Source: a virus (Duplodnaviria; Caudoviricetes). Taken from it: a DNA stretch of 52,129 nucleotides. Where the stretch lies: positions 1 through 52,129 of the IMG/VR virus record IMGVR_UViG_3300020469_000065; one strand, 5' to 3'. The position numbers and the translations under genes are program-made. The notes beneath the pieces are model-generated. The model did no database searches and was not told the DNA's origin. It was given only the letters and a program-made list of their open reading frames with translations. This document shows positions 20,262 to 52,129 of the stretch, piece by piece; within the stretch, counting starts at the first letter, position 1, and each line of letters opens with the position of its first letter.

Positions 20262-20447
20262 ATGATTAGATCATCTAGAATAAACACGAAAGAAGACGAA
20301 GCAAAGAGAGAGGCACCTGCCAAGGCACCTGCAAAGGCTCCCGCAAAGGCACCTGCAAAGGCTCCCGCAAAGGCACCTGCAAAGAAGAAGGCACCAGCCA
20401 AACCCCGCGCAAAAACTCCCGCAAAGAAGACTGCTAAGTCCGAGTAA
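20262..20447 (+). CDS. Small Lys/Ala/Pro-rich histone-H1-like protein
   Basis: AAGGA RBS; (APAK)6 followed by KKAPAKPRAKTPAKK. Confidence 0.65.
   Translation: MIRSSRINTKEDEAKREAPAKAPAKAPAKAPAKAPAKAPAKKKAPAKPRAKTPAKKTAKSE
20313..20384 (+). repeat. 12-bp tandem repeat x6 (GCWCCYGCMAAG) encoding APAK
   Basis: Directly visible tandem units. Confidence 0.9.
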
Positions 20448-39473: not shown

Positions 39474-40595
39474 ATGGCTAAAAAGAAAGAAGTCAAAGCC
39501 GGTCGCGTAGACATGAGCGCGATGCGAGCAATGATAAACAAGAAGGCTGGGCGTAATGTGGCTCACGACCTGAGAGAAGATAATCCAACATCGGTAAAGC
39601 AGTGGATACCGACAGGATCACGCTGGCTTGATTCAATTGTTTGTAAGGGAAAGTATGCTGGCATCCCTGTCGGCAAGGTAACAGAGTTGGCTGGTCTGGA
39701 AGCAACAGGAAAGTCTTTCCTTGCTGCCCAGTGCGCAGCAAATGCACAGAAGATGGGCATTGGTGTAATCTACTTTGATTCGGAGTCTGCGATTGATCCG
39801 TCATTCTTAGAGAAGGCTGGGTGTGATCTTGGCTCAATGATGTATGTCCAGGCACAGTCGGTAGAATTTGTGCTTGAGACCATAGAAGAGTTGTTGGGAG
39901 CAACAGACGACCAACTATTATTTATTTGGGACTCTCTTGCATTCACCCCGTCAGTATCAGATGTGGCAGGGGATTTCAATCCACAATCGTCAGTGGCAAC
40001 CAAGGCTCGTATTCTCGCGAAGGCGATGTCAAAACTGGTTATTCCACTTGCAGATAAGAAGGCAACGTTCCTTGTCCTCAACCAGTTGAAGACCAACATT
40101 CCACAGGGACCAATGGCGCGACAGATTGCTATGACAACACCCTACATTACCCCAGGCGGAAAGGCTATGCATTATGCTTACTCTCTTCGCATTTGGCTTA
40201 CAGGTCGCAAGAGCAAGGCAGCCTATGTCCTTGATGATAATGGTTTCCGTATTGGCTCAGAAGTCAAGGTTAAGCTTGAAAAGTCTCGCTTTGGAACCCA
40301 GGGCAGAACTTGCACATTCCGTATTTTATGGGGAACTGATCCTATTGGCGTGCAAGATGAAGAGTCGTGGTTTGAGGCGCTTAAGGGCTTTATGACCGTT
40401 GCGGGCTCTTGGTATACGCTGGAGCATAATGGCTATACCAAGAGGTTTCAGCCAAGTAAGTGGGTTGGTCTTCTACAGAAAGATCCCGAGTTCAAGAAAC
40501 ATGTTATAGAATTTATGGATGAAGTGGTTGTTCAAAAGTTTGAAAAGCGCGAAGGCGAAGCATCAGACTTCTATGAGGTAGATAAAGCCTCTTGA
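39474..40595 (+). CDS. recA: RecA/UvsX recombinase
   Basis: IPTGS..LD, GIPVGKVTELAGLEATGKS Walker A, YFDSE.A.D, WDSLA, LNQLK, TPGGKA, KSRFG. Confidence 0.93.
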   Translation: MAKKKEVKAGRVDMSAMRAMINKKAGRNVAHDLREDNPTSVKQWIPTGSRWLDSIVCKGKYAGIPVGKVTELAGLEATGKSFLAAQCAANAQKMGIGVIYFDSESAIDPSFLEKAGCDLGSMMYVQAQSVEFVLETIEELLGATDDQLLFIWDSLAFTPSVSDVAGDFNPQSSVATKARILAKAMSKLVIPLADKKATFLVLNQLKTNIPQGPMARQIAMTTPYITPGGKAMHYAYSLRIWLTGRKSKAAYVLDDNGFRIGSEVKVKLEKSRFGTQGRTCTFRILWGTDPIGVQDEESWFEALKGFMTVAGSWYTLEHNGYTKRFQPSKWVGLLQKDPEFKKHVIEFMDEVVVQKFEKREGEASDFYEVDKAS

Positions 40596-40638: not shown

Positions 40639-41604
40639 ATGAAACGCGTACTCGTAATCGACGCCCTCAACATGTTTTTGAGGGCGTTTATTGTCGATCC
40701 CAGCCTGTCTAATCACGGGCAGCCAATCGGTGGTATCAAAGGATCTATGAAAATTTTACAAAAACTCGTAAGAATGACAAAACCAAACGAGATTGTAATT
40801 TGCTGGGATGGACCAAACGGATCTCAAAAGCGCAAGGCACTAAACTCTGGTTATAAAGAAGGTCGTAAACCACTGCGCCTTAATCGCTCCGTTCACAATC
40901 TAACCGAGAACGAAGAACTACAAAACAAAGTTTGGCAACAAATGCAGGTTATTAAATACTTGAATCAAATGCCAATCATTCAACTTATTCTTGAGAGGGT
41001 TGAAGCTGATGACATTATTTCTTATGTATGTAATTCTCGACACTATTCTGGTTGGCAGAAGGTAATTGTCTCAAACGACAAAGACTTCTTACAACTTTGC
41101 GATGACGAGACAGTAGTGTACCGACCAACCACAGACAAGATTGAGACCAAGAAGACTGTGATTGAGAGCCTTGGTATTCATCCAACAAACATGGCACTCG
41201 CTCGTGCTATGGATGGAGACGCCAGCGACAATCTTCCCGGTGTCAATCGTGTGGGGATGAAGACGATCGCTACTAAGCTTCCGTTTATGAAAGAAGAGCG
41301 AACTGTGACAATTGATGAGCTACTGAATTACTGCGAGAACATAGACTCAAAACTGAAAGTTTATAAAAACATTACAGAGTCAAAAGCACTTATCGAACAT
41401 AACTATCAGATGATGCAGTTGTATTCTCCTCTTATCTCAGTGCAAGGCAAGCAGACCATTGATTATGCACTTGAAAACTTTGAATGCGACTTTAACAAGA
41501 CCGAACTCCTGAAACTAATGATTGAAGACGGCTTTGGTGAGTTGAACTGGGAAGAATTAAAAACGTTCTTAAACAAGATTTCAAGGGAATGTAATGATAA
41601 GTGA
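40639..41604 (+). CDS. 5'-3' exonuclease / flap endonuclease (T4 RNase H, Pol I N-terminal family)
   Basis: LVIDALN, WDG, YKEGR, EADDII, IVSNDKDFLQL, GDASDNLPGV. Confidence 0.92.
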   Translation: MKRVLVIDALNMFLRAFIVDPSLSNHGQPIGGIKGSMKILQKLVRMTKPNEIVICWDGPNGSQKRKALNSGYKEGRKPLRLNRSVHNLTENEELQNKVWQQMQVIKYLNQMPIIQLILERVEADDIISYVCNSRHYSGWQKVIVSNDKDFLQLCDDETVVYRPTTDKIETKKTVIESLGIHPTNMALARAMDGDASDNLPGVNRVGMKTIATKLPFMKEERTVTIDELLNYCENIDSKLKVYKNITESKALIEHNYQMMQLYSPLISVQGKQTIDYALENFECDFNKTELLKLMIEDGFGELNWEELKTFLNKISRECNDK

Positions 41605-41630: not shown

Positions 41631-42395
41631 ATGGAAGAACTCTACGAAATTGATGAAGCCGTTCTTGAAGCAGTCATGGGTGCAAATAAAATTGCAAAAC
41701 TTGAAGCTGAATACGTCAACAATAGAAGCGCCGCCGCGTTACAGCAGCTTACCAAACTATCTAAGTTGGGTAAATACAATATGAAAAGCTTGCGCAAAGC
41801 GATGAAACGAGTCTCTGAATCAGAACAAATTGAGCTAGACGAGAAAAGGAAGAAGCGCAGAAAGCGTAAGAAGAAAAAGAAGAAGAGCGGCGGCAAGAAA
41901 GACGCCTGCTATCACAAGGTTAAGTCTCGTTACAAGGTTTGGCCATCTGCTTATGCTTCTGGTGCCCTCGTGAAGTGCCGCAAAGTCGGTGCTAAAAACT
42001 GGGGCAACAAATCCAAGAAGAACGAAGGCATAGAACTAGACGATCATCTTCTACAGATTATCAAAGAGGAATACGCAGCAGTCGTAGCCGAAAAAAAAAA
42101 GAAGCGCAAAGGCGGAAAGAAAGATGGAAAAGGGGCTAGCAGTAAGGGGTACACTCTAAGAAACTGGTTTGCAGGCGACGGCTGGGTTCAAACCGGCGGC
42201 AAGTACGACGGCAAGCCCTGCGCAAAGCAACCCGGACAAAAGACAAAGCCTTACTGCCGCGACCCTGATGATCGTGCAAAGATGAGCAAGAAAGAGCGCG
42301 ACAAGAGAGCAGCCAAAAAGCGCAAAGAAGATCCAAACCCCGATCGTCGTGGCAAAGCCAAGAACGTAAAGCAGAAAAAAGGAAAGAAAAAGTAA
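41631..42395 (+). CDS. Highly basic modular hypothetical protein
   Basis: Poly-Lys/Arg tracts; Cys/Trp modules DACYHKVKSRYKVWPSAYASGALVKCRK and LRNWF...WVQ...KPCA; internal LQIIKEEY. Confidence 0.75.
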   Translation: MEELYEIDEAVLEAVMGANKIAKLEAEYVNNRSAAALQQLTKLSKLGKYNMKSLRKAMKRVSESEQIELDEKRKKRRKRKKKKKKSGGKKDACYHKVKSRYKVWPSAYASGALVKCRKVGAKNWGNKSKKNEGIELDDHLLQIIKEEYAAVVAEKKKKRKGGKKDGKGASSKGYTLRNWFAGDGWVQTGGKYDGKPCAKQPGQKTKPYCRDPDDRAKMSKKERDKRAAKKRKEDPNPDRRGKAKNVKQKKGKKK

Positions 42396-42727
42396 TGGAA
42401 CTCACAGAATCATACGTCAGACAAGTAATCAAAGAAGAGTATCGGGCTGTTCTTGACGAAAAGAAAAAGAAGAAGAAGTCCGCCAAGGATAAGATGAAGT
42501 GTAATTCCCCTCGTCGTATTCGCGATGGCGAAGCAGGTCACGGCAAAAAGAAGTTTGTTGTTAAGGCATGCGACGGTGGCAAAGAAAGAATAATCCGTTA
42601 TGGAGACGCTGGCTTGAAGATCAAGCGCAAACAGAAGGGACGTAGAAAGAATTTCCGCGCTCGTCACAACTGCGATAACCCCGGATCCAAATTGAAAGCT
42701 CGCTACTGGTCCTGCAAGAACTGGTAG
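42395..42727 (+). CDS. Small basic hypothetical protein
   Basis: VRQVIKEEY leader; KKFVVKAC...RYGD...NFRARHNC...ARYWSCKNW. Confidence 0.75.
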   Translation: MELTESYVRQVIKEEYRAVLDEKKKKKKSAKDKMKCNSPRRIRDGEAGHGKKKFVVKACDGGKERIIRYGDAGLKIKRKQKGRRKNFRARHNCDNPGSKLKARYWSCKNW

Positions 42728-44224: not shown

Positions 44225-46182
44225 GATCACACATTCGTAGATTTAAGTTATCAGATACATTTATAGAACAGTATAGGGATCGTGAGGTCCCTTGGGGACC
44301 TCTTGGTTATGTCACGTTTAAACGGACGTATGCCCGCCGCTTAAGTGAATTTGATGAAGAAGCAACTGGCACCGAAGAATGGCACCAGACATGCCGTCGT
44401 GTCATTGAGGGTATGTTCGACATGCAGAAACAGCATGTCTACAAGCTTGGTCTTGAGTGGAATGACCAGAAAGCACAGCGCACAGCAAAGGATGCGTTTG
44501 ATCGTCTCTTCAACCTTAAGTGGACGCCCCCCGGTCGTGGCTTATGGATGATGGGAACTAAGTTCGTTAACACCCGCACAGCAGCAGGTCTGTTCAATTG
44601 TGCGTTTCGTTCTACCCGAGAGCTTAACACCAAGGGTGGTTATCTGTTCGCTTGGATGATGGACGCGCTCATGCTTGGTATCGGTGTCGGCTTTGACACT
44701 CTTGGTGCTGACACAATCACTATTCAGGAGCCAGAATTCACAAATGAAACACACGTCATTCCAGACTCTCGTGAGGGATGGGTTGATTCTGTAAAGATCT
44801 TATTGAACGGTTTTCTGTTTGGCTCAAAGATTCCTACTTTTGACTATTCAGCAATACGTCCGTATGGTGCTCCTATTCGCGGCTTTGGTGGCACATCAAG
44901 CGGCTCCGGTCCTCTTGAGGAACTACATAAGGACTTGTCAGAACTTTACAATGCCAGGATTGGTGAGGAATTAACTTCTGTTGATATTGTAGATACGGAA
45001 AATTTGATTGGTCGTTGCGTTGTTGCTGGTAATGTTCGTAGGTCTGCTGCGCTAGCTCTTGGCAACCACGAAGACCGCGAATATCTTCAGATGAAGAATG
45101 ATTCTGAGAAACTTGCCCACCACCGTTGGGGTTCCAATAACTCCTTTCACGCACTTGTTGGTCAGGACTATACTTGGCACGCTGAACAATCACAGAAGAA
45201 CGGAGAGCCAGGATACATCTGGCTTGACAACGCAAGAACTCGTGGTCGCTTTGCTGATCCTCCGAGAGACGATGATAAAAATGTTATGGGCTTCAATCCC
45301 TGCGTGGAGCAACAGTTGGAAGATGCTGAGTTGTGCTGTCTTGTTGAGACTTTCCCAGCAAAGCACGAAACTTACGAAGATTACCTCGCAACTCTTAAGA
45401 TCGCATACCTTTATGGCAAGACTGTTACACTTGCCAACACACATTGGCCAGAAACTAATGCCAAAATGCTTAAGAACCGTCGTATCGGTCTTTCACAGTC
45501 TGGTGTTGTCCAGGCTTTCAACAAGTTCGGTCGCCGTGAGTTGCTACAATGGTGTGATAATGCCTACGAGCATGTAAAAGAGTTGGATGCAGAATACTCT
45601 GATTGGCTTTGTATTCCAAAGTCAGTAAGAATGACAAGCATCAAACCTTCTGGCACAGTTTCACTTCTCAATGGTTCTACCCCCGGCATCCATTACCCCG
45701 AGGATGAATACTACATTCGTCGTATTCGTTTTGCGGCTGACAGTGATATGCTACCTGCCCTCGCAGCAGCAGGATATAAGATTGAACCTGATCACTACTC
45801 TCCAAACACTATGTGTGTAGAGTTTCCTGTCCACGAAGAACACTTCATCAAGGGCAAGAGAGAAATTACAATGTGGGAGCAGCTAGAGATTGCAGCACAG
45901 TACCAGCATTATTGGGCAGACAACTCTGTTTCTATTACTGTGACTTTTAAACCCGAAGAAGCAGCAGACATTAAGACCGCTCTTGAGATGTACGAGACCA
46001 GACTAAAGGCTGTATCATTCTTGCGCTATGAAGAGACAGGTTATGTTCAGGCTCCTTACGAGCCAATAACCCGAGAACAATACGAAGAGATGAGTGAAGG
46101 CATTACCCCGGTTCAGCGTTTTAACACCGAAGAAGGTGGAGAAGGAACTAAGTTTTGCGATGGTGAATCATGTATAATGTGA
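44221..46182 (+). CDS. nrdJ: Class II (adenosylcobalamin-dependent) ribonucleotide reductase
   Basis: PPGRGLW, NCAF, VAGNVRRSA, NPCVEQ, IKPSGTVSLL, C-terminal FCDGESC. Confidence 0.92.
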   Translation: MRSHIRRFKLSDTFIEQYRDREVPWGPLGYVTFKRTYARRLSEFDEEATGTEEWHQTCRRVIEGMFDMQKQHVYKLGLEWNDQKAQRTAKDAFDRLFNLKWTPPGRGLWMMGTKFVNTRTAAGLFNCAFRSTRELNTKGGYLFAWMMDALMLGIGVGFDTLGADTITIQEPEFTNETHVIPDSREGWVDSVKILLNGFLFGSKIPTFDYSAIRPYGAPIRGFGGTSSGSGPLEELHKDLSELYNARIGEELTSVDIVDTENLIGRCVVAGNVRRSAALALGNHEDREYLQMKNDSEKLAHHRWGSNNSFHALVGQDYTWHAEQSQKNGEPGYIWLDNARTRGRFADPPRDDDKNVMGFNPCVEQQLEDAELCCLVETFPAKHETYEDYLATLKIAYLYGKTVTLANTHWPETNAKMLKNRRIGLSQSGVVQAFNKFGRRELLQWCDNAYEHVKELDAEYSDWLCIPKSVRMTSIKPSGTVSLLNGSTPGIHYPEDEYYIRRIRFAADSDMLPALAAAGYKIEPDHYSPNTMCVEFPVHEEHFIKGKREITMWEQLEIAAQYQHYWADNSVSITVTFKPEEAADIKTALEMYETRLKAVSFLRYEETGYVQAPYEPITREQYEEMSEGITPVQRFNTEEGGEGTKFCDGESCIM

Positions 46183-46192
46183 TGGGTGCGGC

Positions 46193-46432
46193 ATGAATTT
46201 TAATCATTTATTTATGGAAAGAGAACTGCGCCTTGCTAATAAAAGAGGCAAGTGTTCGTGTTGTCACTGGCTACCAGCATCTGAAGGGCAAGCTAGTGCA
46301 GCAAGAAATATGGTAGTCAAGATGTATTGTAAAAAATGTGATAACACAACAATGGTATTTATGCATGTTGACGAATATAAAATACACGAAAAAGTTATAA
46401 TTCAGGAGGTGAATCGTGTTAAGACCAGTTAA
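46193..46432 (+). CDS. Small Zn-ribbon-like hypothetical protein
   Basis: CSCCH...YCKKC. Confidence 0.55.
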   Translation: MNFNHLFMERELRLANKRGKCSCCHWLPASEGQASAARNMVVKMYCKKCDNTTMVFMHVDEYKIHEKVIIQEVNRVKTS

Positions 46433-46685
46433 TAGACATATTTTGGTAGGATACTCTCCACCACAGGAAAAGACAGACTCAGGAATTTTACTACCTGATG
46501 ACTACAAACCCCCTACAGAAGACTACTTAGTTGTAGATGTTTTGGCTGTAGCAGATGATGTCTCTATAAGTTGTAATACTGATGACAAAATTATTATCGA
46601 CAAAAAGATGTTACAGCAAATTAGTGTTCAACACTCTAATTACTATTTGATATTAGAGAATTATGTATTAGGAGTACTGCAATAA
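46416..46685 (+). CDS. groES: GroES/Cpn10-like co-chaperonin
   Basis: LRPVNRHILV, KTDSGILLP mobile loop, VLAV, YYLILENYVLGV; AGGAGG RBS with GTG start. Confidence 0.75.
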   Translation: MLRPVNRHILVGYSPPQEKTDSGILLPDDYKPPTEDYLVVDVLAVADDVSISCNTDDKIIIDKKMLQQISVQHSNYYLILENYVLGVLQ

Positions 46686-47579
46686 ATGGATAAAGACTTT
46701 TACAACAAATCATCGGCACAAAGCCTTGGCTGGGATCCAACTTGGTTTGGTGAAAAGTATTTTGATGATAAACTTGTAAGAGCCATTAAGCGTTTTCAAA
46801 AACGCTATGGTCTGGGTGCTGATGGCATGTGTGGACCAAACACATTCCGTTGCCTCTGGACCGAGCGCCAAGAAAACATTGACGACTACGAACCCACAGA
46901 CCCACATTACTCAAACTACATTGTTTACAATGGCAACTTTACACCAATAAAGTGGGACAAGTTTGTGTTGTGGTCTGAGCGCGGCGGGCTTATGGCACGT
47001 CCCGGCAACTACTATGACTACACAGCGAGACCTCAAAGAGATGTCAAGTTGTTTGTTAATCACTGGGACGCTTGCCTGTCTTCTACACAATGCCAAAAAG
47101 TTTTAGATAAGCGTGGCATAAGTGTTCACTTTCTTATCGATAATGACGGCACAATCTATCAGACTCTTGATATGCAGCACGCCGCCTTCCACGCAGGCAA
47201 GGTTAATCGCAAGTCTGTCGGTGTAGAGATCTCCAATGCTTTTTACACAAAGTATCAGGATACCTATGTCCGCAGAGGATTCGGGGAAAGACCATTAATT
47301 GACAATGCAAGAGTCCATTTCAGTGAAATACAGCCCTTCTTGGGTTTTTACCCAGTTCAGATTGAGGCGCTTAAGGCTTTGTGGTCGGCAGTACATAACG
47401 CATGTGATGTTCCACTAGAGACTCCACTAAACCAGTTTGGCAAAACCTCTACGGTTTATGAACAACAGTGGACCTATGGTAAAGAGCGCGGCTTCGTCAG
47501 TCACTACCACGTTGACAAGCGTAAGATAGACTGCGCAGGGCTAGACATAAAAACCTTGCTCTCTGAGCTTGACGACTGA
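46686..47579 (+). CDS. N-acetylmuramoyl-L-alanine amidase (endolysin-like) with N-terminal peptidoglycan-binding motif
   Basis: AIKRFQKRYGLGADGMCGPNT PG-binding; FVNHWD, SVHFLIDNDGTIYQ, AFHAG..N..SVGVE, SHY...KIDC. Confidence 0.85.
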   Translation: MDKDFYNKSSAQSLGWDPTWFGEKYFDDKLVRAIKRFQKRYGLGADGMCGPNTFRCLWTERQENIDDYEPTDPHYSNYIVYNGNFTPIKWDKFVLWSERGGLMARPGNYYDYTARPQRDVKLFVNHWDACLSSTQCQKVLDKRGISVHFLIDNDGTIYQTLDMQHAAFHAGKVNRKSVGVEISNAFYTKYQDTYVRRGFGERPLIDNARVHFSEIQPFLGFYPVQIEALKALWSAVHNACDVPLETPLNQFGKTSTVYEQQWTYGKERGFVSHYHVDKRKIDCAGLDIKTLLSELDD

Positions 47580-47597
47580 CCTGCGACCTGTTATGTT
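47569..47597 (+). promoter_or_regulatory. Sigma70-type promoter for thyX and the cassette array
   Basis: TTGACG-17-TATGTT with TG extension; shares CCTGTTATGTTATA with the 40592 promoter. Confidence 0.7.
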
Positions 47598-47617
47598 ATA
47601 AACATAACGGAGAACAG

Positions 47618-48325
47618 ATGACCAGCAAATCAATTGAATTATACGGCGACGGCATTGGTCGCGTCGATTATGTAAATCATATGGGTGACGACCTTACCGT
47701 CGTAAACTCTGCCCGAGTATCATTCGGAGTAGAAAAGGAGAATTTAGATGAACGTGATAAGAAGCTTATCAACTACCTCATCAAACACAAACATACCTCT
47801 ACTCTTGAGCATAATCTCATTACTTTCAGGTTTAGTGTTCCTATGTTCGTTCGGTCTCAGCACCATCGTCATAGAACATGGTCTTATAATGAGATTAGTA
47901 GACGCTACACTGATGTAAACATCAACTTCTACGAACCAAAAGAGTTCAGAACACAACACAAGAGCAACCGGCAGGCAAGCAACGCCGAAGAGTTGATTGA
48001 TCCAGATCTGTTTCTCGCAGGAACACACAAGGTTGCGGCTTCCGAAGCATTCCGAGGACACAATAAGATTTCTCTGGAATTGTTCAACAGCCTTATCGAA
48101 GCAGGCGTTTGCCGAGAACAGGCAAGAGGGGTTCTACCACAGAACCTCTACACCGAATACTACGGCACAGTCAATCTGTCTAACCTCTTGAAGTTCATTG
48201 ACCTTCGCACACACGAAGGGGCACAATGGGAGATCCAAAAGGTTGCCGAGGCTTGTTTGGAAATTGCTACGGATCTGTTCCCTGAAACTGTGGGTGCTTA
48301 TCGTAGGATTAGGAACGAAGAATGA
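47618..48325 (+). CDS. thyX: Flavin-dependent thymidylate synthase
   Basis: VNSARVS, H.S.LEH, RHRTWSYNEISRRY signature, EQARGVLP, AQWEI. Confidence 0.95.
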   Translation: MTSKSIELYGDGIGRVDYVNHMGDDLTVVNSARVSFGVEKENLDERDKKLINYLIKHKHTSTLEHNLITFRFSVPMFVRSQHHRHRTWSYNEISRRYTDVNINFYEPKEFRTQHKSNRQASNAEELIDPDLFLAGTHKVAASEAFRGHNKISLELFNSLIEAGVCREQARGVLPQNLYTEYYGTVNLSNLLKFIDLRTHEGAQWEIQKVAEACLEIATDLFPETVGAYRRIRNEE

Positions 48326-48594
48326 TTACAATAAAAAGCACATTTAACTTGACCTCACAGACGTTTAGCGAATACTTTAATTCAAATATAGATTTGGAAA
48401 TTAGAAAGTATCGTGGACGAAAACGCCTTAGAAAGAAAAGAGCGAAAGCTGCCCTTAGAGCACGATGGATGGCGGAAAGTTTTTTATCTACTATTTCTCG
48501 CAGAATTGATTATCATTCGATTTGTGATCAGTTTATGGAGATTGAAGATTTAAGAATTCTTTCTGCAATACCTTTTAAGGAGAACGAAGAATGA
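48322..48594 (+). CDS. Cassette 1: 90-aa protein with capsid-like motifs
   Basis: Starts in the thyX-end repeat; ends KENEE*. Confidence 0.7.
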   Translation: MITIKSTFNLTSQTFSEYFNSNIDLEIRKYRGRKRLRKKRAKAALRARWMAESFLSTISRRIDYHSICDQFMEIEDLRILSAIPFKENEE

Positions 48595-48740
48595 AAAAGC
48601 AAAATAGCTTTCCACTTTGGTTTATGTTGGTGTTTATTGCACCGTTTATTTTTGGATATGCTCTTTGGGGCGAGTTTATTTATGGTGATTGGAAGTGTGG
48701 GTTTGCTGAATGTCGTATACTCAAGGAAAACGAAGAATGA
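48591..48740 (+). CDS. Cassette 2: 49-aa membrane peptide (not in ORF track)
   Basis: MKKQNSFPLWFMLVFIAPFIFGYALWGEFIYGDWKCGFAECRILKENEE*; repeat to repeat in frame. Confidence 0.75.
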   Translation: MKKQNSFPLWFMLVFIAPFIFGYALWGEFIYGDWKCGFAECRILKENEE

Positions 48741-48961
48741 GTGACAAACCAAAGGTTAAAGGGGACTTTTGCCCCCGTTGCGATAAAAATGTGAAATGGT
48801 TTCCTGTTCCTGATTCACTGGCCTCTTTCTGTAAAGGGTGCGGTTTTGTAAGAGTAGGGTTTGGCGAGACAGATGAAAGTGGAATAAGACTTTATGATGT
48901 TGGAGCCACGATACAACAGTGGTTAGAAAATGTTTTTGGCACGAAGGAGAACGAAGAATGA
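48737..48961 (+). CDS. Cassette 3: 74-aa Zn-ribbon-like protein
   Basis: MSDKPK...CPRC...CKGC...KENEE*. Confidence 0.75.
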   Translation: MSDKPKVKGDFCPRCDKNVKWFPVPDSLASFCKGCGFVRVGFGETDESGIRLYDVGATIQQWLENVFGTKENEE

Positions 48962-49182
48962 AAGTTGGTGATAAAGTTCAGTATTGTGGCTACGACACCC
49001 TTGGCGCAACAGGCGAGATCATAAGAGAAAAAGAAAAAACTCTTTACTATAGTAAGTGGGAACGCGAAGGTGACGATAGGTATTGTATGTGTTATCTTGT
49101 AAGATACACAATGCCAAACGGCAAGACTATCAACAATGTTGCGAGAATAGAAGATCTAAAACTACTGGAGAACGAAGAATGA
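48958..49182 (+). CDS. Cassette 4: 74-aa MKVGD (KOW/SH3-like) protein
   Basis: MKVGDKVQY...GATGEII...YLVRY...DLKLLENEE*. Confidence 0.75.
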   Translation: MKVGDKVQYCGYDTLGATGEIIREKEKTLYYSKWEREGDDRYCMCYLVRYTMPNGKTINNVARIEDLKLLENEE

Positions 49183-49460
49183 GTGACAATGAAAAACGAC
49201 TGCTTAAATCCTTGATGGGCTTTTCAAATGCACACAGTATTTTGCTGGAAAGGTGCAGGAGATTAAAGAGAGATTTTGATTCTGCTATATCTTATGGTGA
49301 TATCGTTGATGATGGGATGGATACTGCTGCTGAACTACTTTCAAGATTTCTTGAGGATGTGTTCCTGTTGGAGAACGAAGAAGACACTGCTTATCTAAAA
49401 AAGAATCTTTTTGAATCACTTAAAGTGCCAAAAGAGTTTCTTAAGGAGAACGAAGAATGA
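49179..49460 (+). CDS. Cassette 5: 93-aa protein with portal-like C-terminal segment
   Basis: MSDNEK...LLENEE-DTAYLKKNLFESLKVPKEFL-KENEE*. Confidence 0.75.
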   Translation: MSDNEKRLLKSLMGFSNAHSILLERCRRLKRDFDSAISYGDIVDDGMDTAAELLSRFLEDVFLLENEEDTAYLKKNLFESLKVPKEFLKENEE

Positions 49461-49831
49461 AAGTCGGTGATCTGATAACTCCACAAGGAGACAACATCTT
49501 TGTTGTTTTCCAAAAGAAGTGGATTATGTCGCGCCCCCGTTATGCAAGTATGGGAGCACCACCAAGTGCTGATTTTTATCCACAAAGCACCACCGAGCAT
49601 CGTGTTGCAGAAGTTGCCGAGGACAATCAAATCTTGTTCCAAGGATTGACTTTGGGTGTTTGGCCAAGCGAAGAGTTTAAGGTTGCGATTTTCAATGAAG
49701 AAGAATACCGAGTCTATCTAAACGAGAACTACATTAAGTGCTTTTATTGTAGTTCTGTTTTCAGCATCAATCAATTTGATGACGATTACGCTATCTGCGG
49801 CAAGTGCCGAGATGAGGAGAACGAAGAATGA
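49457..49831 (+). CDS. Cassette 6: 124-aa MKVGD protein with C-terminal CxxC..CxxC
   Basis: MKVGDLI...CFYC...CGKCRDEENEE*. Confidence 0.75.
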   Translation: MKVGDLITPQGDNIFVVFQKKWIMSRPRYASMGAPPSADFYPQSTTEHRVAEVAEDNQILFQGLTLGVWPSEEFKVAIFNEEEYRVYLNENYIKCFYCSSVFSINQFDDDYAICGKCRDEENEE

Positions 49832-50034
49832 AAGTCGGTGATAAAGTTCGTCTTGCTCATTTCCACGGCTCTACCGGAGATCAAATCTTGGCTGAAAGCG
49901 GAGCCGCAGGAGTAATCAAGAGCATTGAAGAAGAACCTGAACCAAATGTTCTTACACGATGTGTAGAAGTTCAGTGGAACGACGGCATCAGTTGGCACTT
50001 TCGGCATACACTTATTTTGGAGAACGAAGAATGA
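49828..50034 (+). CDS. Cassette 7: 68-aa MKVGD (KOW/SH3-like) protein
   Basis: MKVGDKVRL...GVIKSI...VEVQWNDG...LILENEE*. Confidence 0.75.
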   Translation: MKVGDKVRLAHFHGSTGDQILAESGAAGVIKSIEEEPEPNVLTRCVEVQWNDGISWHFRHTLILENEE

Positions 50035-50132
50035 TTGAATACCACCAGTTTGCATATTTTATTGCAGTAATATGGACCACTTGTATGGTCACTTTCTTTT
50101 GGCTTATATCAAGGCTAGGACCAAAGAAGTGA
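50031..50132 (+). CDS. Terminal 33-aa hydrophobic peptide after the last repeat (not in ORF track)
   Basis: MIEYHQFAYFIAVIWTTCMVTFFWLISRLGPKK*; starts at the repeat ATG. Confidence 0.6.
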   Translation: MIEYHQFAYFIAVIWTTCMVTFFWLISRLGPKK

Positions 50133-50139
50133 CTATTTA
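50132..50139 (+). promoter_or_regulatory. ACTATTTA putative late promoter element
   Basis: Before the GGAG RBS of 50155. Confidence 0.65.
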
Positions 50140-50154
50140 TACTCGGAGAACCAA

Positions 50155-50823
50155 ATGAAAAAGATTATAAACGAATGGAATAGCTTTCTAAATGAAAGTT
50201 CAATTAGCCGCACTTACGAACACATACTCAATCACGACACAGCGTTTATCACAGCGTTCCGTGATGATCCCGGCGATCCTACTAAATGTAGAAAACCATC
50301 TAAACTAAAAAAGGTACAGGTCCCTGCCGCAAAACAGCGAAGCATGATTCAATCAAACAAAGAAAGAAACATGTTCTTAAAGGCTGCTCTATTGGAAAGA
50401 GGATACGGAGTCACTGATGTTGACGGTACCTACGTTGAAGACTTTGGAACTGATGCAGCGAAAGAAGTAAAAGAAGATTCATTCTTCGTTGTTAATTTGA
50501 ACGATGACCCTTCCTTTAAGGGATTTCTTAACGGGTTATCAGAACACTTCTGCCAGGACTCTTTCTTATATGTCAATCGTGGTGGGGAGAGTTCAGTGCT
50601 TATCGGCACCAATGACAGTGAATTCCCTGGTTTTGGAAATCAAGCGCCGATGGGCTCATTCTTGGGCGGCAAGGAAGGAGAATTCATGACTCGTGTTGGT
50701 AAGTCTAAGCGCCCTATTAAGTTTGCTGAAGGTCTTGATACAAAAAAGAAATCTCAGAACAACACCAAGTTTCTTATTTCTAAATTTTCTAAAGAATTGT
50801 TAAAAGAAATCAAGGGAGGATAA
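50155..50823 (+). CDS. Hypothetical protein, probably late/virion-associated
   Basis: MKKIINEWNSFLNE leader; ITAFR, G.YVE, E.SFFV, FCQDS. Confidence 0.75.
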   Translation: MKKIINEWNSFLNESSISRTYEHILNHDTAFITAFRDDPGDPTKCRKPSKLKKVQVPAAKQRSMIQSNKERNMFLKAALLERGYGVTDVDGTYVEDFGTDAAKEVKEDSFFVVNLNDDPSFKGFLNGLSEHFCQDSFLYVNRGGESSVLIGTNDSEFPGFGNQAPMGSFLGGKEGEFMTRVGKSKRPIKFAEGLDTKKKSQNNTKFLISKFSKELLKEIKGG

Positions 50824-51714
50824 TTGAACCCATACTACGACGAAATCGTAGTTGGTTCCTCGCTTCGCGCTCTACTCTTTGCCTCCTCACGGGGGCTTCC
50901 TGTATTTTTCAGCAAGCCAGAGAAGCCATTTGAGTTTGAACATTTTGGATTAACGATCAACTTGTCAAGTTGGGCTCTCCATAACGAACCTCAACAATGG
51001 ACAACACCGGAAGGAGTAGAACTAACAGGGCAACCAAAGATTGCCTTATGGGAACACCTTCGCTTTGTTCTGGGTTTGAAGGGGCTTACTCCGTTTTCTG
51101 ATCTCTGTTATTCACTTCGCCTTGACGACAATTCCTTGACAGGGCATTCAGAGTATGCTAAACTAAGGACAATAGAGTTTGGCGTGTGTCATTACTTTGA
51201 CGAGCGTGCCACCTACAACCTACTATCCTGCGAGAACAAACAAAAGACTTATCACGTTTATGATAGATTAGCATTTATACGAGGAGGAAAACACCACCTT
51301 GATCTGATAGAGGGCGATGACCTGTTTTGCAATAAGATATGGTTTTATCCTACCCCCAGAGTAGATGGCAGAAACCCGTTTAAAGACGCCTGCGTGCTTT
51401 CGATTTTATCAGACGACCAGATAGACGACTTTGATTTTTCAGAGACCATAGTGAGGCTCACAACCACCCAGAAAATGAAAGACTTAGGATTGAGAGGACC
51501 AAGAAATGGCTACCAATACGACGGATCGATACGATACAGAAGTTTCAAGGTTGAAGCAATCAATCGTAGCAAATTTGTATCAACTCCTCCGCTATGGCTG
51601 GAGACGGATACGATCAAAGTTCCCAAAGTTAGCGAAGAAGAACTCCTCTCGCAACTCCCAGAGATCGCAGAAAGAAACAAAAACATTTTAGAGCACCTAT
51701 GGCAAAACATTTAG
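50824..51714 (+). CDS. Hypothetical protein with degenerate Rossmann-like N-terminus
   Basis: TTG start with GGAGG RBS; YDEIVVGSSLRALLFA resembles D.IVVG.G..GL.AA. Confidence 0.6.
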   Translation: MNPYYDEIVVGSSLRALLFASSRGLPVFFSKPEKPFEFEHFGLTINLSSWALHNEPQQWTTPEGVELTGQPKIALWEHLRFVLGLKGLTPFSDLCYSLRLDDNSLTGHSEYAKLRTIEFGVCHYFDERATYNLLSCENKQKTYHVYDRLAFIRGGKHHLDLIEGDDLFCNKIWFYPTPRVDGRNPFKDACVLSILSDDQIDDFDFSETIVRLTTTQKMKDLGLRGPRNGYQYDGSIRYRSFKVEAINRSKFVSTPPLWLETDTIKVPKVSEEELLSQLPEIAERNKNILEHLWQNI

Positions 51715-52129
51715 CAGGCATTATACCACTGGCAAACTTTGACGACAACTACAAGTTGCCATACGATTCTTTTATGCTTCCCATTCAAAATGACTTCACC
51801 CTTATCCAGAAGTCAGTGTTTGAGTGTGCGATGGCAGGCTGCTCTACTATTTGGATTGTAGCCAACGATGATCTTGCTCCGTTGGTAAAGAAGCACATTG
51901 GTGAGTGGGTGTATGATCCTGTTTACTTTTGGGACAACTATGTAAACAACCACATTGTTCAGCGCAGGACACACATACCTATTTACTATGTCCCGATTCT
52001 ACCAAAGGACAGAGACAGACGTGATAGTTATGGCTGGTCTGCCTTGTTCGGTATGCATTCTGCGTGGTGGGTTTCTTTCAGGATCTCCAAGTGGGTCATC
52101 CCAAAGAAATACTTTGTGTCGTTTCCACA
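51699..52129 (+). CDS. Nucleotidyltransferase-like protein (partial, runs off right edge; not in ORF track)
   Basis: MAKHLAGIIPLAN...MLPI....TLIQKSVFECAMAGCSTIWIVAN resembles the N-terminus of sugar-phosphate nucleotidyltransferases; open to window end. Confidence 0.6.
   Translation, partial: MAKHLAGIIPLANFDDNYKLPYDSFMLPIQNDFTLIQKSVFECAMAGCSTIWIVANDDLAPLVKKHIGEWVYDPVYFWDNYVNNHIVQRRTHIPIYYVPILPKDRDRRDSYGWSALFGMHSAWWVSFRISKWVIPKKYFVSFP

What the first reader, a model, noticed from the sequence alone, without database searches (positions are those of the whole stretch)
48310..50132. Integron-like array of small gene cassettes joined by one 16-bp RBS/stop/start repeat, anchored on the thyX 3' end
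Seen: thyX and the next seven ORFs all end in (E/R)NEE* because each junction is the same DNA word, GGAGAACGAAGAATGA. It supplies the SD (GGAG), the upstream stop (TGA) and the downstream start (ATG). Six copies are perfect, with essentially no synonymous variation, so the constraint acts on DNA/RNA and not only on the peptide. Repeat-to-repeat units are 269, 146, 221, 221, 278, 371 and 203 bp, each carrying exactly one in-frame ORF (membrane peptides, Zn ribbons, KOW/SH3-like). Inference: these are exchangeable, self-expressing units. Recombination between two repeats would excise a gene as a circle whose junction recreates RBS+start, and insertion at any repeat preserves coupling and the upstream C-terminus. 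thyX and its promoter would act as platform and driver. No integrase is visible in the window, so RecA/microhomology-driven shuffling is plausible. I do not recognise this architecture as a described system.
Basis: partly seen in the sequence, partly recalled or inferred. Interest (0 to 1): 0.92.

Follow-up and report, generated by a model that had tools for sequence, protein, structure and literature searches.

The report
Phage gene cassettes joined by one linker
In an uncultured marine phage, a run of small accessory genes after the thyX gene is stitched together by one identical 16-letter stop/ribosome-site/start word, and related phages carry different gene sets swapped at exactly that word.

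Summary
GGAGAACGAAGAATGA occurs 6 times exactly in 48579-50034, with near-copies at 48725 and at the thyX stop (0.65 expected). thyX and the next seven ORFs end in NEE*.

The window is a 29%-complete marine myovirus record, all genes on the + strand. The word recurs in arrays in many related viral contigs: 39 of 119 and 32 of 106 scanned loci hold 2 or more copies, against 2 of 120 cellular-genome loci, those copies kilobases apart.

The constraint is on nucleic acid, not the ENEE peptide. Two alleles (A/G at position 6) sort by genome, 48 of 50 copies.

Relatives show 1 to 8 cassettes between thyX and a SAM-lyase-like gene. Clean indels and replacements are bounded by the word, and some cassettes are far more alike than the backbone.

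No tyrosine or serine recombinase was found in near-complete relatives; a UvsX-like recombinase is present. So it is not an integron.

It works like PeSL modular shuffling, with a translational-coupling junction instead of a promoter/terminator. Caveat: the same interval turns over as fast in relatives lacking the word.

The parts
47618..48325 (+). thyX (flavin-dependent thymidylate synthase), the left anchor. Its last 16 nt form a degenerate copy of the junction word.
   Evidence: Pfam PF02511, E 4e-49. ORF and ...IRNEE* end. 13 of 16 match at 48310-48325.
48310..48325 (+). Junction word copy 0 (TAGGAACGAAGAATGA). Holds the thyX stop and the start of cassette 1.
48322..48594 (+). Cassette 1, 90 aa. 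No family and no homologue in the 126 compared loci.
48579..48594 (+). Junction word, exact copy
48591..48740 (+). Cassette 2, 49 aa, one hydrophobic segment. No homologue in the compared loci.
48725..48740 (+). Junction word, 15 of 16 (GGAAAACGAAGAATGA)
48737..48961 (+). Cassette 3, 74 aa, CxxC...CxxC (zinc-ribbon-like). Shared with L082.
   Evidence: (weak Zn_ribbon hits only)
48946..48961 (+). Junction word, exact copy
48958..49182 (+). Cassette 4, 74 aa, MKVGDK... family. Seven members in seven loci (six sources after removing duplicate contigs), with five different left and six different right neighbours.
49167..49182 (+). Junction word, exact copy. Left edge of a 278-bp unit that is absent from L083.
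49179..49460 (+). Cassette 5, 93 aa, a chimera. A unique 68-aa part is followed by a relic junction word (49370-49385) and a 25-aa tail like the C-end of another cassette family, which carries a portal-like segment.
49445..49460 (+). Junction word, exact copy. Right edge of the 278-bp unit.
49457..49831 (+). Cassette 6, 124 aa. The MKVGD... N-part (like the 83-aa cassette of L083) appears fused to a CxxC...CxxC C-part (like the 56-aa cassettes of L134 and L194).
49816..49831 (+). Junction word, exact copy
49828..50034 (+). Cassette 7, 68 aa, MKVGDK... It is 99.1% nt identical to L132 from word to word, while thyX of the same pair is 81.7% identical.
50019..50034 (+). Junction word, exact copy, the last of the array
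50031..50132 (+). Cassette 8, 33 aa hydrophobic peptide. Ends GPKK*, followed by a 22-nt spacer. Shared with L082.
50155..50823 (+). SAM-lyase-like gene, the right anchor. It is preceded by its own conserved AACTATTTATA..GGAGAAC..ATG leader.
   Evidence: Pfam PF23780, E 3.5e-9. Leader conserved in 8 of the 9 sources shown; L085 differs.
39474..40595 (+). UvsX-like recombinase, a candidate enzyme for homology-driven exchange (a role inferred, not shown)
   Evidence: phrog_97, E 1.5e-58

Best explanation
The region is a hyperplastic accessory-gene array of an uncultured marine myovirus that is distantly T4-like. Each small gene is a cassette made of the 16-nt word plus one ORF.

The word supplies three things: a Shine-Dalgarno core (GGAG), a fixed 8-nt spacer, and an ATGA overlap of the downstream start with the upstream stop. 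The genes are therefore probably read as one transcript from upstream (thyX) and translated by termination-reinitiation coupling.

Because the word is identical at every junction, it is also a 16-bp direct repeat. General homology-driven or template-switch recombination can act at it, both within a genome and between co-infecting relatives. The phage carries a UvsX-like recombinase and no site-specific one. Any exchange inside the word deletes, inserts or replaces whole genes. It automatically restores stop, ribosome site and start, and it gives the upstream protein the by-product tail ENEE.

Repeated exchange, or selection on the RNA signal, keeps all copies in a genome alike.

In function this is the PeSL principle, in which regulatory cassettes act as recombination linkers, carried out with a translational junction.

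Shown here: the anatomy, the nucleic-acid-level constraint, the confinement to arrays, the shuffled cassettes, and the word-bounded indels.

Inferred: co-transcription, coupling, that crossovers occur inside the word, and which enzyme acts.
For: Anatomy:
- Searches give the copies, spacings and overlaps in the window.
- Across viral loci, 104 of 136 distinct word-to-word units have spacing equal to 2 mod 3. 102 of 136 are one open frame from the ATG of one copy to the TGA of the next (binomial p 9e-25).
- Promoter-like and terminator-like sites in 46000-52129 do not clearly exceed shuffles: 12 vs 12.7 (sd 3.5) and 8 vs 4.8 (sd 2.2).

The constraint is not on the peptide:
- Among 125 GGAG-N8-ATGA sites in loci chosen by thyX, 31 have the spacer AACGAAGA and 30 have AGCGAAGA (N to S). 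Synonymous spacers are not among the 25 commonest.
- In the G-allele clade, thyX reads the word in another frame (...RAKND*).
- In 32 of 193 copies the upstream ORF ends elsewhere; in 9 of these a TAA sits just before GGAG.

The word is not a general ribosome site:
- G001 (163 kb, 90% complete) has 7 of 7 copies in the array after thyX.
- Cellular genomes give only scattered single copies.

Concerted alleles: 48 of 50 copies match their genome's majority allele, and 0 of 20000 permutations reach this.

Shuffling:
- Between thyX and the SAM-lyase-like gene there are 1 cassette (L058, L085) to 8 cassettes (window).
- 117 small-gene families are word-bounded in non-redundant loci, and 75 of them were seen once.
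- Of the 18 families seen 3 or more times, 13 have at least 2 different neighbours on both sides, and 8 occur in at least 2 backbone contexts.

Breakpoints:
- 171 of 618 left ends and 187 of 660 right ends of internal homology lie within -10..+25 of a word, against 1.5% of random positions.
- 140 of 167 word junctions carry a breakpoint, against 157 of 527 other gene starts.

Clean cases:
- Window vs L083: flanks are 95.5% and 96.3% identical and overlap by exactly the 16-nt word in L083. In the window they are 278 bp apart.
- Window 49815-50034 vs L132: 99.1% identical from word to word, against 81.7% for thyX.
- Window vs L082: three cassettes are replaced by one SdhB-like gene between two word positions.

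Some cassettes are more alike than ThyX in the same genome pair, for example 96% vs 65% and 96% vs 69%.

Independent marine metagenomes hold contigs in which the thyX end is joined directly to the cassette of 48958, and loose ends pile up at word edges.

A UvsX-like recombinase is present.
Against: - At matched ThyX identity, the gene content of the thyX-to-F7 interval turns over as fast in relatives without the word. Mean Jaccard is 0.01-0.16 for pairs without it and 0.01-0.10 for pairs with it. The word is therefore not needed for plasticity, and its causal role is not shown.
- Phage mosaic breakpoints fall at gene boundaries anyway. The 84% vs 30% contrast compares small accessory genes with mostly core genes, and the loci are related and partly chosen for the word.
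- Across whole cassette families, including members in lineages without the word, junction 16-mers are no more conserved than gene bodies. The word belongs to the lineage or array, not to the gene.
- 16 bp is short for recombinase-dependent homologous exchange (recalled knowledge, not tested here).
- Most 'joints' between copies have sides of about 20 nt, which is the word itself, and may be mapping artefacts.
- Predicted accessibility of the junctions does not differ from other starts (0.58 vs 0.52, p 0.34).
- No raw reads were available, so no circles, tandem junctions or transcript ends could be seen.
Confidence: 0.6

Rival explanations
1. The word is first of all a cis-acting RNA signal read by a trans-acting factor. 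Candidates are a RegB/S1-type endoribonuclease site, a RegA-type translational repressor site, or an S1-dependent enhancer. It would mark one class of accessory genes for common post-transcriptional control. On this view the coincidence with recombination breakpoints is incidental, because genes are the units of exchange.
For: - The T4 RegB/S1 target consensus is GGAGRAYARAA (PMC1702504, passages read). The word's first 11 nt, GGAGAACGAAG, fit 9 of 11 positions by my own comparison.
- The whole 8-nt spacer is fixed with no synonymous drift, which simple SD spacing does not explain.
- Clade-wide A/G alleles would fit co-evolution with a factor.
- The word is confined to one or two arrays per genome.
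- Turnover is equally fast without the word.
- The word tracks lineage, not gene family.
- The start-associated sequences of Cluster K phages are a precedent for conserved, SD-containing words of unknown function at the starts of non-structural genes (PMC3203893).
Against: - No RegB (PF10715) or RegA (PF01818) match was found in G000-G003. The controls were silent too, so this is inconclusive.
- Positions 8 and 11, which are strongly A in T4 sites, are G here.
- A binding-site model does not by itself explain why the site must include the ATGA overlap. It also does not explain why arrays with the word are larger: mean 8.1 genes vs 2.9, Mann-Whitney p 4e-4, not corrected for phylogeny.
- The word-bounded indels between near-identical flanks remain.
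- The two explanations are not exclusive.
Confidence: 0.25
2. It is a true integron-like system. A dedicated site-specific recombinase, encoded elsewhere in the genome, excises cassettes as circles and inserts them at the word.
For: The layout is an array of promoterless single-ORF cassettes in one orientation behind a fixed anchor, with one repeat per cassette. The window is only 29% of the genome, so a recombinase gene could lie outside it.
Against: - No tyrosine recombinase (PF00589) or serine recombinase (PF00239) was found in the window record or in relatives that are 90% and 100% complete and carry arrays. The controls rang in 14 and 12 of 14 genomes.
- The word has no dyad symmetry, and nothing is conserved beyond its 16 nt (below 0.35 bit outside it, 172 copies). 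There is thus no attC-like hairpin.
- No endonuclease or recombinase was found among the larger cargo genes (10 proteins scanned).
Confidence: 0.04
3. The selected feature is the shared C-terminal peptide ENEE, acting as a tag, degron or docking tail. The DNA repeat is its shadow.
For: 142 of 193 copies end an upstream ORF of at least 30 codons at the TGA of the word, giving (E/S)NEE-type tails. thyX and seven ORFs in the window share the tail.
Against: - The non-synonymous AGC allele is as common as AAC, while synonymous variants are essentially absent.
- thyX of one clade crosses the word in another frame.
- The word is intact where the upstream ORF stops before it.
- Homologues of the same cassettes lack the tail in other lineages.
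Confidence: 0.03
4. The array arose by tandem duplication of one ancestral small gene, with the junctions kept by descent.
For: Three window cassettes start MKVGD and may be distant paralogues. L132 has two adjacent members of one family.
Against: - The word-bounded genes fall into 117 unrelated families, including enzymes such as a PP-loop ATPase, a GNAT, a 2OG oxygenase and an SdhB-like protein.
- Bodies are unalignable while junctions are identical.
- The same cassette occurs with different neighbours and in different genomic contexts.
Confidence: 0.03

Closest known systems
PeSL (promoter-early stem-loop) cassettes of T4-type phages (Arbiol et al. 2010, PMC2839356, passages read; Comeau et al. 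2014, PMC4122927, abstract read)
   Same: Both are short conserved regulatory words that flank small ORFans in hyperplastic regions of large myoviruses. Indels and replacements between relatives are bounded by the word. Both have a proposed homology-driven exchange without a dedicated recombinase, and exchange preserves expression of the moved gene. In that work, crossovers were mapped between the SD/ATG and the -10 box.
   Different: PeSLs are composite sigma-70-type promoters plus terminator stem-loops in intergenic space. Here there is no promoter or stem-loop signal, no intergenic space, and only 16 nt that overlap two coding frames. Expression would be by translational coupling within one transcript. 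Mini-circles were shown for PeSLs by inverse PCR and could not be tested here. The phage is only distantly related to T4: TerL is 32% identical to T4-like cyanophages, and 42% to the nearest cultured phages.
Start-associated sequences (SAS) of Cluster K mycobacteriophages (Pope et al. 2011, PMC3203893, passages read)
   Same: Both are asymmetric conserved words of 13-16 nt containing an SD core. Both lie in one orientation, immediately upstream of ATG starts of non-structural genes of different families, and sometimes contain the upstream stop. In both, positions that cannot pair with 16S rRNA are conserved too, the word is rare outside the phage group, and the function is unknown.
   Different: The sequence differs (GGGATAGGAGCCC). 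SAS copies are scattered over half the genome rather than forming tandem one-gene arrays. They lie 3-7 bp from the start without a fixed ATGA overlap. No role in shuffling was described in the passages I read.
Integrons (features recalled from general knowledge, not from a call)
   Same: Both are one-orientation arrays of promoterless single-gene cassettes behind a fixed platform, with one repeat per cassette and a large, mostly unknown cassette pool.
   Different: There is no IntI recombinase, no attC hairpin and no attI. The repeat lies inside coding sequence and carries the translation signals. The host is a lytic-type phage genome.
T4 RegB/S1 cleavage sites in early-gene ribosome binding sites (Durand et al. 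2006, PMC1702504, passages read)
   Same: Both have GGAG followed by a purine/A-rich 7-nt tail at the translation start regions of small early-type genes. 9 of 11 positions fit GGAGRAYARAA.
   Different: T4 sites are degenerate, whereas this word is near-invariant over 16 nt. No RegB homologue was found, though that search is inconclusive. Cleavage is untested.

Membership tests
Integron | Adjacent IntI-type tyrosine recombinase gene | tested here: not met
   PF00589 gave 0 matches in G000-G003, including relatives that are 90% and 100% complete and carry arrays. The control rang in 14 of 14 genomes. PF00239 also gave 0.
Integron | attC sites: imperfect inverted repeats able to fold as hairpins at each cassette end (feature recalled) | tested here: not met
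   The repeat is 16 nt and non-palindromic. Information content falls below 0.35 bit immediately outside it in 172 copies. No junction-associated inverted repeats were found.
Integron | Promoterless single-ORF cassettes in one orientation, expressed from a platform promoter | tested here: inconclusive
   One ORF per unit in 102 of 136 units. No excess of promoter-like sites inside the array. Transcription from the thyX side is inferred only.
PeSL cassettes (T4-type phages) | Composite early promoter plus stem-loop terminator | tested here: not met
   Promoter-like and terminator-like sites do not clearly exceed shuffles: 12 vs 12.7 (sd 3.5) and 8 vs 4.8 (sd 2.2). Nothing is conserved beyond the 16 nt.
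PeSL cassettes (T4-type phages) | Flank ORFans in hyperplastic regions; indels and replacements between relatives bounded by the motif | tested here: met
   For example, a 278-bp unit is present in the window and absent from L083, with the flanks overlapping by exactly the word.
PeSL cassettes (T4-type phages) | Mini-circles formed by recombination between flanking motifs | not testable with these tools
   All runs served were assembled contigs. Raw reads or inverse PCR are needed.
Start-associated sequences (Cluster K) | Consensus GGGATAGGAGCCC | tested here: not met
   The word here is GGAGA(A/G)CGAAGAATGA. Only the GGAG core is shared.
Start-associated sequences (Cluster K) | Asymmetric SD-containing word just upstream of ATG starts of non-structural genes, in one orientation | tested here: met
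   All array copies are on the + strand at starts. 0 GGAG-N8-ATGA sites occur on the reverse strand of 81 loci. Copies are absent from the structural-gene part of the window.
RegB/S1 target site | GGAG plus a 7-nt A-rich tail fitting GGAGRAYARAA | tested here: inconclusive
   9 of 11 positions fit. Positions 8 and 11 are G instead of A. This is my comparison with the consensus quoted.
RegB/S1 target site | RegB endoribonuclease encoded by the phage | tested here: inconclusive
   PF10715 gave 0 matches in G000-G003, but the control set also gave none, so the search was not validated.
Translationally coupled overlapping genes (ATGA) | Start codon overlapping the upstream stop, with an SD inside the upstream ORF | tested here: met
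   Seen directly in the sequence at all 8 window junctions. Functional coupling is not testable here.

The most novel reading that the evidence does not exclude
The word may be the core site of a dedicated, self-propagating gene-capture platform of marine myoviruses, a 'translational integron'. An as yet unrecognised phage factor (protein or RNA) would recognise the 16 nt and direct cassette excision and insertion, possibly through small circles, while the same word makes every captured ORF immediately translatable. The clade-specific A/G alleles would then reflect co-evolution of site and factor. The larger arrays in word-bearing lineages would reflect active capture.
Probability: 0.12. Interest if true: 0.85.

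Novelty: new variant of a known kind. Interest (0 to 1): 0.62.

Why it matters
Hyperplastic regions full of small unknown genes are where large phages adapt to hosts and defences. How such genes are gained, lost and kept expressed is documented for few systems.

This one has an unusually clean rule. One 16-nt word serves at once as stop, ribosome site, start and recombination linker. It is shared by at least 71 viral loci holding two or more copies and by more than 100 gene families. It shows genome-wide concerted alleles.

This gives three practical openings:
- A sequence tag for mining accessory-gene cassettes from marine viromes.
- A natural design for plug-in, self-expressing gene modules.
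- A tractable test of whether short regulatory words drive phage mosaicism or merely mark it.

The finding that equal turnover occurs without the word makes that last question sharp.

Tried and rejected
- DNA similarity search of the array against cultured phages found no match. tblastn of the 74-aa cassette also found none.
- Pfam and PHROGs on the eight cassettes gave no family. The only hit was a weak portal hit on the 93-aa ORF, later explained.
- RegB and RegA family searches found nothing, but their controls were silent, so they are no evidence of absence.
- Predicted RNA accessibility of the junctions did not differ from other starts.
- An AlphaFold model of the 68-aa cassette, from a 7-sequence alignment, reached mean pLDDT 62 and pTM 0.43. 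That is too poor for a fold search, so none was run. 'SH3-like' therefore stays a lead.
- Read laying:
  - Joints between word copies with sides of about 20 nt were set aside as likely mapping artefacts of the repeat.
  - Only the joint 48325 to 48959 (side 67) and the loose ends were used.
  - Parts of the stretch without cover in some runs were not interpreted.
  - RNA-library contigs 100% identical to 48452-48685, 48926-49188 and three further pieces do not prove transcription.
- I tested whether junction words are conserved with the cassette family across all lineages. They are not.
- I tested whether word-bearing pairs turn over faster than pairs without the word. They do not.
- Literature:
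  - Two full-text searches for a described equivalent and one for the literal words found nothing alike.
  - The library lacks most subscription journals, and supplements were closed, so 'not in print' is limited to these searches.
  - The passages read of PMC4503421 say that PeSLs are unlikely to explain a cyanophage ORFanage.

Full report
OBSERVATION

The word GGAGAACGAAGAATGA is present exactly six times, at 48579, 48946, 49167, 49445, 49816 and 50019. It occurs once with one mismatch (48725). The thyX stop carries a 13-of-16 copy (48310).

In all there are 11 matches at up to 3 mismatches. Shuffles give a mean of 0.65, and 0 of 100 shuffles reach 11.

Spacings are 269, 146, 221, 221, 278, 371 and 203.

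thyX and the next seven ORFs end in NEE*. Each start overlaps the previous stop as ATGA. The eighth ORF (50031-50132) starts in the last copy and ends GPKK*. The word is the most repeated 10- to 12-mer of the window.

WHAT THE WINDOW IS

The window is a whole IMG/VR record, which CheckV rates 29% complete. All 57 ORFs I called lie on the + strand.

It encodes the following:
- large terminase, portal, major head protein, tail sheath and tape measure
- a UvsX-like recombinase (39474-40595) and a DnaB-like helicase
- ThyX
- a SAM-lyase-like protein (50155-50823)

The nearest cultured phages share only 42% TerL identity (a Flavobacterium phage and a Microcystis phage). T4-like cyanophages share 32%. 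The stretch is held by marine metagenomes of several studies.

THE WORD ELSEWHERE

The G-allele word GGAGAGCGAAGAATGA gave 114 stretches.

| Scan | Loci | With 2+ same-strand copies (up to 1 mismatch) | With 3+ copies |
|---|---|---|---|
| Viral, A-allele | 119 | 39 | 18 |
| Viral, G-allele (new loci only) | 106 | 32 | 23 (up to 9 copies) |
| Cellular genomes, same 16-mer | 120 | 2 (copies kilobases apart) | 0 |

Arrays are therefore a viral feature, and single hits are largely chance.

Across the viral loci and the window there are 136 distinct word-to-word units of up to 700 nt, with a median of 230 nt. Of these, 104 have spacing equal to 2 mod 3. 102 are one open frame from the ATG of one copy to the TGA of the next.

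THE CONSTRAINT IS ON NUCLEIC ACID

I took loci chosen by ThyX similarity, not by the word: 593 relatives were found and the best 80 kept. These hold 125 GGAG-N8-ATGA sites on the + strand and none on the - strand.
- 31 have the spacer AACGAAGA and 30 have AGCGAAGA.
- The synonymous alternatives are not among the 25 commonest spacers, a list that already reaches single occurrences.
- AGC changes Asn to Ser.

In the G-allele clade, thyX runs through the word in another frame (...RAKND*...RAKNE*).

Of 193 copies at up to 1 mismatch:
- 142 end an upstream ORF of at least 30 codons at the word's TGA.
- 19 have no such ORF.
- 32 have the upstream ORF ending elsewhere, 9 of them at a TAA directly before GGAG. 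The word is intact in these too.

Outside the 16 nt, information content drops below 0.35 bit in 172 copies. No larger hidden element is present.

IT IS NOT A GENERAL RIBOSOME SITE

GGAGAAC alone occurs at other starts in the window, for example thyX and 50155. The full word does not.
- G001 (163 kb, 90% complete): 7 of 7 copies lie in the array that begins at the thyX 3' end.
- G002 (191 kb, 100% complete): 4 copies at two places.

CONCERTED ALLELES

Among 13 ThyX-selected sources with 2 or more exact copies, 48 of 50 copies carry their genome's majority allele. 0 of 20000 permutations reach this. L195 and L197 are near-duplicates.
- A-allele genomes are those with ThyX 80-85% identical to the window (L207, at 73%, is an exception).
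- G-allele genomes have ThyX 69-75% identical.

SHUFFLING

The backbone is RNR, small genes, amidase, thyX, a variable interval, then F7 and F5.

Among the closest relatives, the number of cassettes between thyX and the SAM-lyase-like gene varies widely:

| Source | Cassettes |
|---|---|
| L058, L085 | 1 |
| L134, L135 | 2 |
| L082 | 5 |
| L130 | 8 (only the first six joined by the word) |
| Window | 8 |

After removing near-identical loci (126 loci reduced to 103 groups), 117 small-gene families are word-bounded, and 75 of them were seen once. Of the 18 families seen 3 or more times:
- 13 have at least 2 different neighbours on each side.
- 8 occur behind at least 2 different backbone genes.

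A rough classification of the 41 pattern-scan loci with 3 or more copies gives 15 thyX-adjacent, 22 in other contexts and 4 unknown.

Larger cargo genes include a PP-loop ATPase, a GNAT, DUF4385, a 2OG-Fe(II) oxygenase, an Rv2179c-like exoribonuclease and an SdhB-like Fe-S protein. None of the 10 scanned is an endonuclease or a recombinase.

BREAKPOINTS

I examined 1278 unique internal ends of pairwise homology (at least 75% identity, at least 100 nt) among 66 loci.
- 171 of 618 left ends lie within -10..+25 of a word start, piling up at -4..0.
- 187 of 660 right ends lie in the same range, piling up at +15..+21.
- Random positions fall there 1.5% of the time.

140 of 167 word junctions carry a breakpoint, against 157 of 527 other gene starts (odds ratio 12; the loci are not independent).

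Concrete cases:
- Window 48959-49182 and 49445-49684 match L083 293-516 and 501-740 at 95.5% and 96.3%. In L083 the two blocks share one word. In the window they are separated by one 278-bp unit flanked by two words.
- Window 49815-50034 matches L132 at 99.1%, exactly from word to word. thyX of the same pair is 81.7% identical.
- Window 48723-49186 matches L082 at 97.4%, and homology resumes at 50019. In between, the window has three cassettes and L082 has one SdhB-like gene.

Protein identities are discordant with the backbone in some pairs. Cassettes reach 96% vs ThyX 65%, 96% vs 69%, 98% vs 81% and 95% vs 80%. The neighbouring backbone genes F7 and F5 are usually far less conserved than ThyX. 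Other cassette pairs in the same output are less alike than ThyX, for example 37% vs 77% and 34% vs 73%.

In metagenome contigs of other studies:
- The thyX stop is joined to the cassette of 48958 (X4, side 67).
- The thyX tail directly precedes the core of that cassette's word (X7).
- Loose ends lie at word edges: 48325, 48576, 48944, 48949, 49182, 49831, 49835-6 and 50036.

SCARS

The 93-aa ORF 49179-49460 holds a 13-of-16 relic word at 49370. Its tail after that point is homologous to the C-end of another cassette family (94% over 63 nt with L013). The join lies where that family has the word-like GAGCAAGAAGA.

The 124-aa ORF looks like a fusion of two cassette types.

NO DEDICATED RECOMBINASE

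PF00589 and PF00239 gave no match in G000-G003, with working controls. Promoter-like and terminator-like sites in 46000-52129 do not clearly exceed shuffles.

EVIDENCE THAT LIMITS THE CLAIM

- At matched ThyX identity, the interval's gene content overlaps as little in pairs without the word (Jaccard 0.01, 0.03, 0.16) as in pairs with it (0.01, 0.06, 0.10). The word is thus not required for plasticity.
- Word-bearing intervals are larger: mean 8.1 genes (n=8) against 2.9 (n=22), Mann-Whitney p 4e-4, uncorrected for relatedness.
- Junctions in lineages without the word are heterogeneous, with gaps from -17 to +170 within the interval, leaving aside the larger gaps before the F7/F5 anchor.
- Across whole families, junction 16-mers are no better conserved than gene bodies. 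The word belongs to a lineage's array, not to the gene.
- Junction accessibility is not distinctive.

INTERPRETATION

I read the word as a translational-coupling junction that doubles as a 16-bp recombination linker. An exchange within it moves whole genes and always restores stop, SD and start. ENEE is a by-product.

This is the PeSL principle (PMC2839356; PMC4122927) with a translational rather than a transcriptional cassette. It resembles the start-associated sequences of Cluster K phages in position and in its unexplained conservation (PMC3203893).

A trans-acting RNA-level reader remains a serious and non-exclusive rival. The word fits 9 of 11 positions of the T4 RegB/S1 consensus (PMC1702504). 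A strict integron reading fails two defining features.

I found no paper describing this word or this architecture in three searches. The library is incomplete, and supplements were closed.

VERDICT

This is a new variant of a known kind. Confidence in the main explanation is 0.6.

Noticed in passing
window 49381-49460; L111, L207 and L013 cassettes; window portal gene 3742-5769: One cassette family carries a segment like the phage's own portal protein. The L111 99-aa cassette aligns with window portal residues 294-361 at 37% identity (pairwise E 2e-10). The last 25 aa of the window's 93-aa ORF align with portal residues 337-361. It may be a small portal mimic; its role is unknown.
   Followed up: partly
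window 49370-49385: A relic junction word (GGAGAACGAAGAAGAC, 13 of 16) lies inside an ORF, at the join between a unique N-part and a tail borrowed from another cassette family.
   Followed up: partly
window 40906-40917: The 12-mer GAGAACGAAGAA also occurs once inside the FEN/RNase H-like gene, where it encodes T-ENEE-L. This could be chance or a seed of the word.
   Followed up: no
window 50133-50154, and the same place in L037, L058, L082, L083, L130, L134 and L135: A leader of the form (A)ACTATTTATA(C/G)..GGAGAAC..ATG is conserved before the SAM-lyase-like gene at the right edge of the array. L085 has a different leader. It may be a promoter-like element. A different shared word, TTATGTTATA, precedes thyX (47592) and the gene at 40639.
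   Followed up: no
L024, L026, L051, L062 (about 55% G+C): A higher-G+C viral lineage carries collinear arrays with degenerate variants of the word (GGAGGACGAGGAATGA, GGAGAAAGAGGAATGA, GGACTACGAAGAATGA).
   Followed up: no
L082 11074-11841 (- strand of the locus): A 255-aa SdhB-like protein (Fer2_3 plus a 4Fe-4S dicluster domain) sits as a word-started cassette in the array after thyX.
   Followed up: partly
window 41631-42727: Two adjacent ORFs (254 and 110 aa) are extremely lysine-rich, with runs of K and KKKRK, and share an N-terminal motif. Their function is unknown.
   Followed up: no
window 48452-48685, 48926-49188, 49208-49365, 50144-50310, 50410-50671: Contigs from a marine metatranscriptome library (X11) are 100% identical to these pieces of the array. 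Two of them bridge junction words. DNA carry-over is not excluded.
   Followed up: partly
window 20322-20381 and 12626-13125: Short in-frame direct repeats lie in the structural-gene part of the window: AAGGCACCTGCA three times at 24-nt spacing, and GGTCTCGCTGCTGC three times.
   Followed up: no
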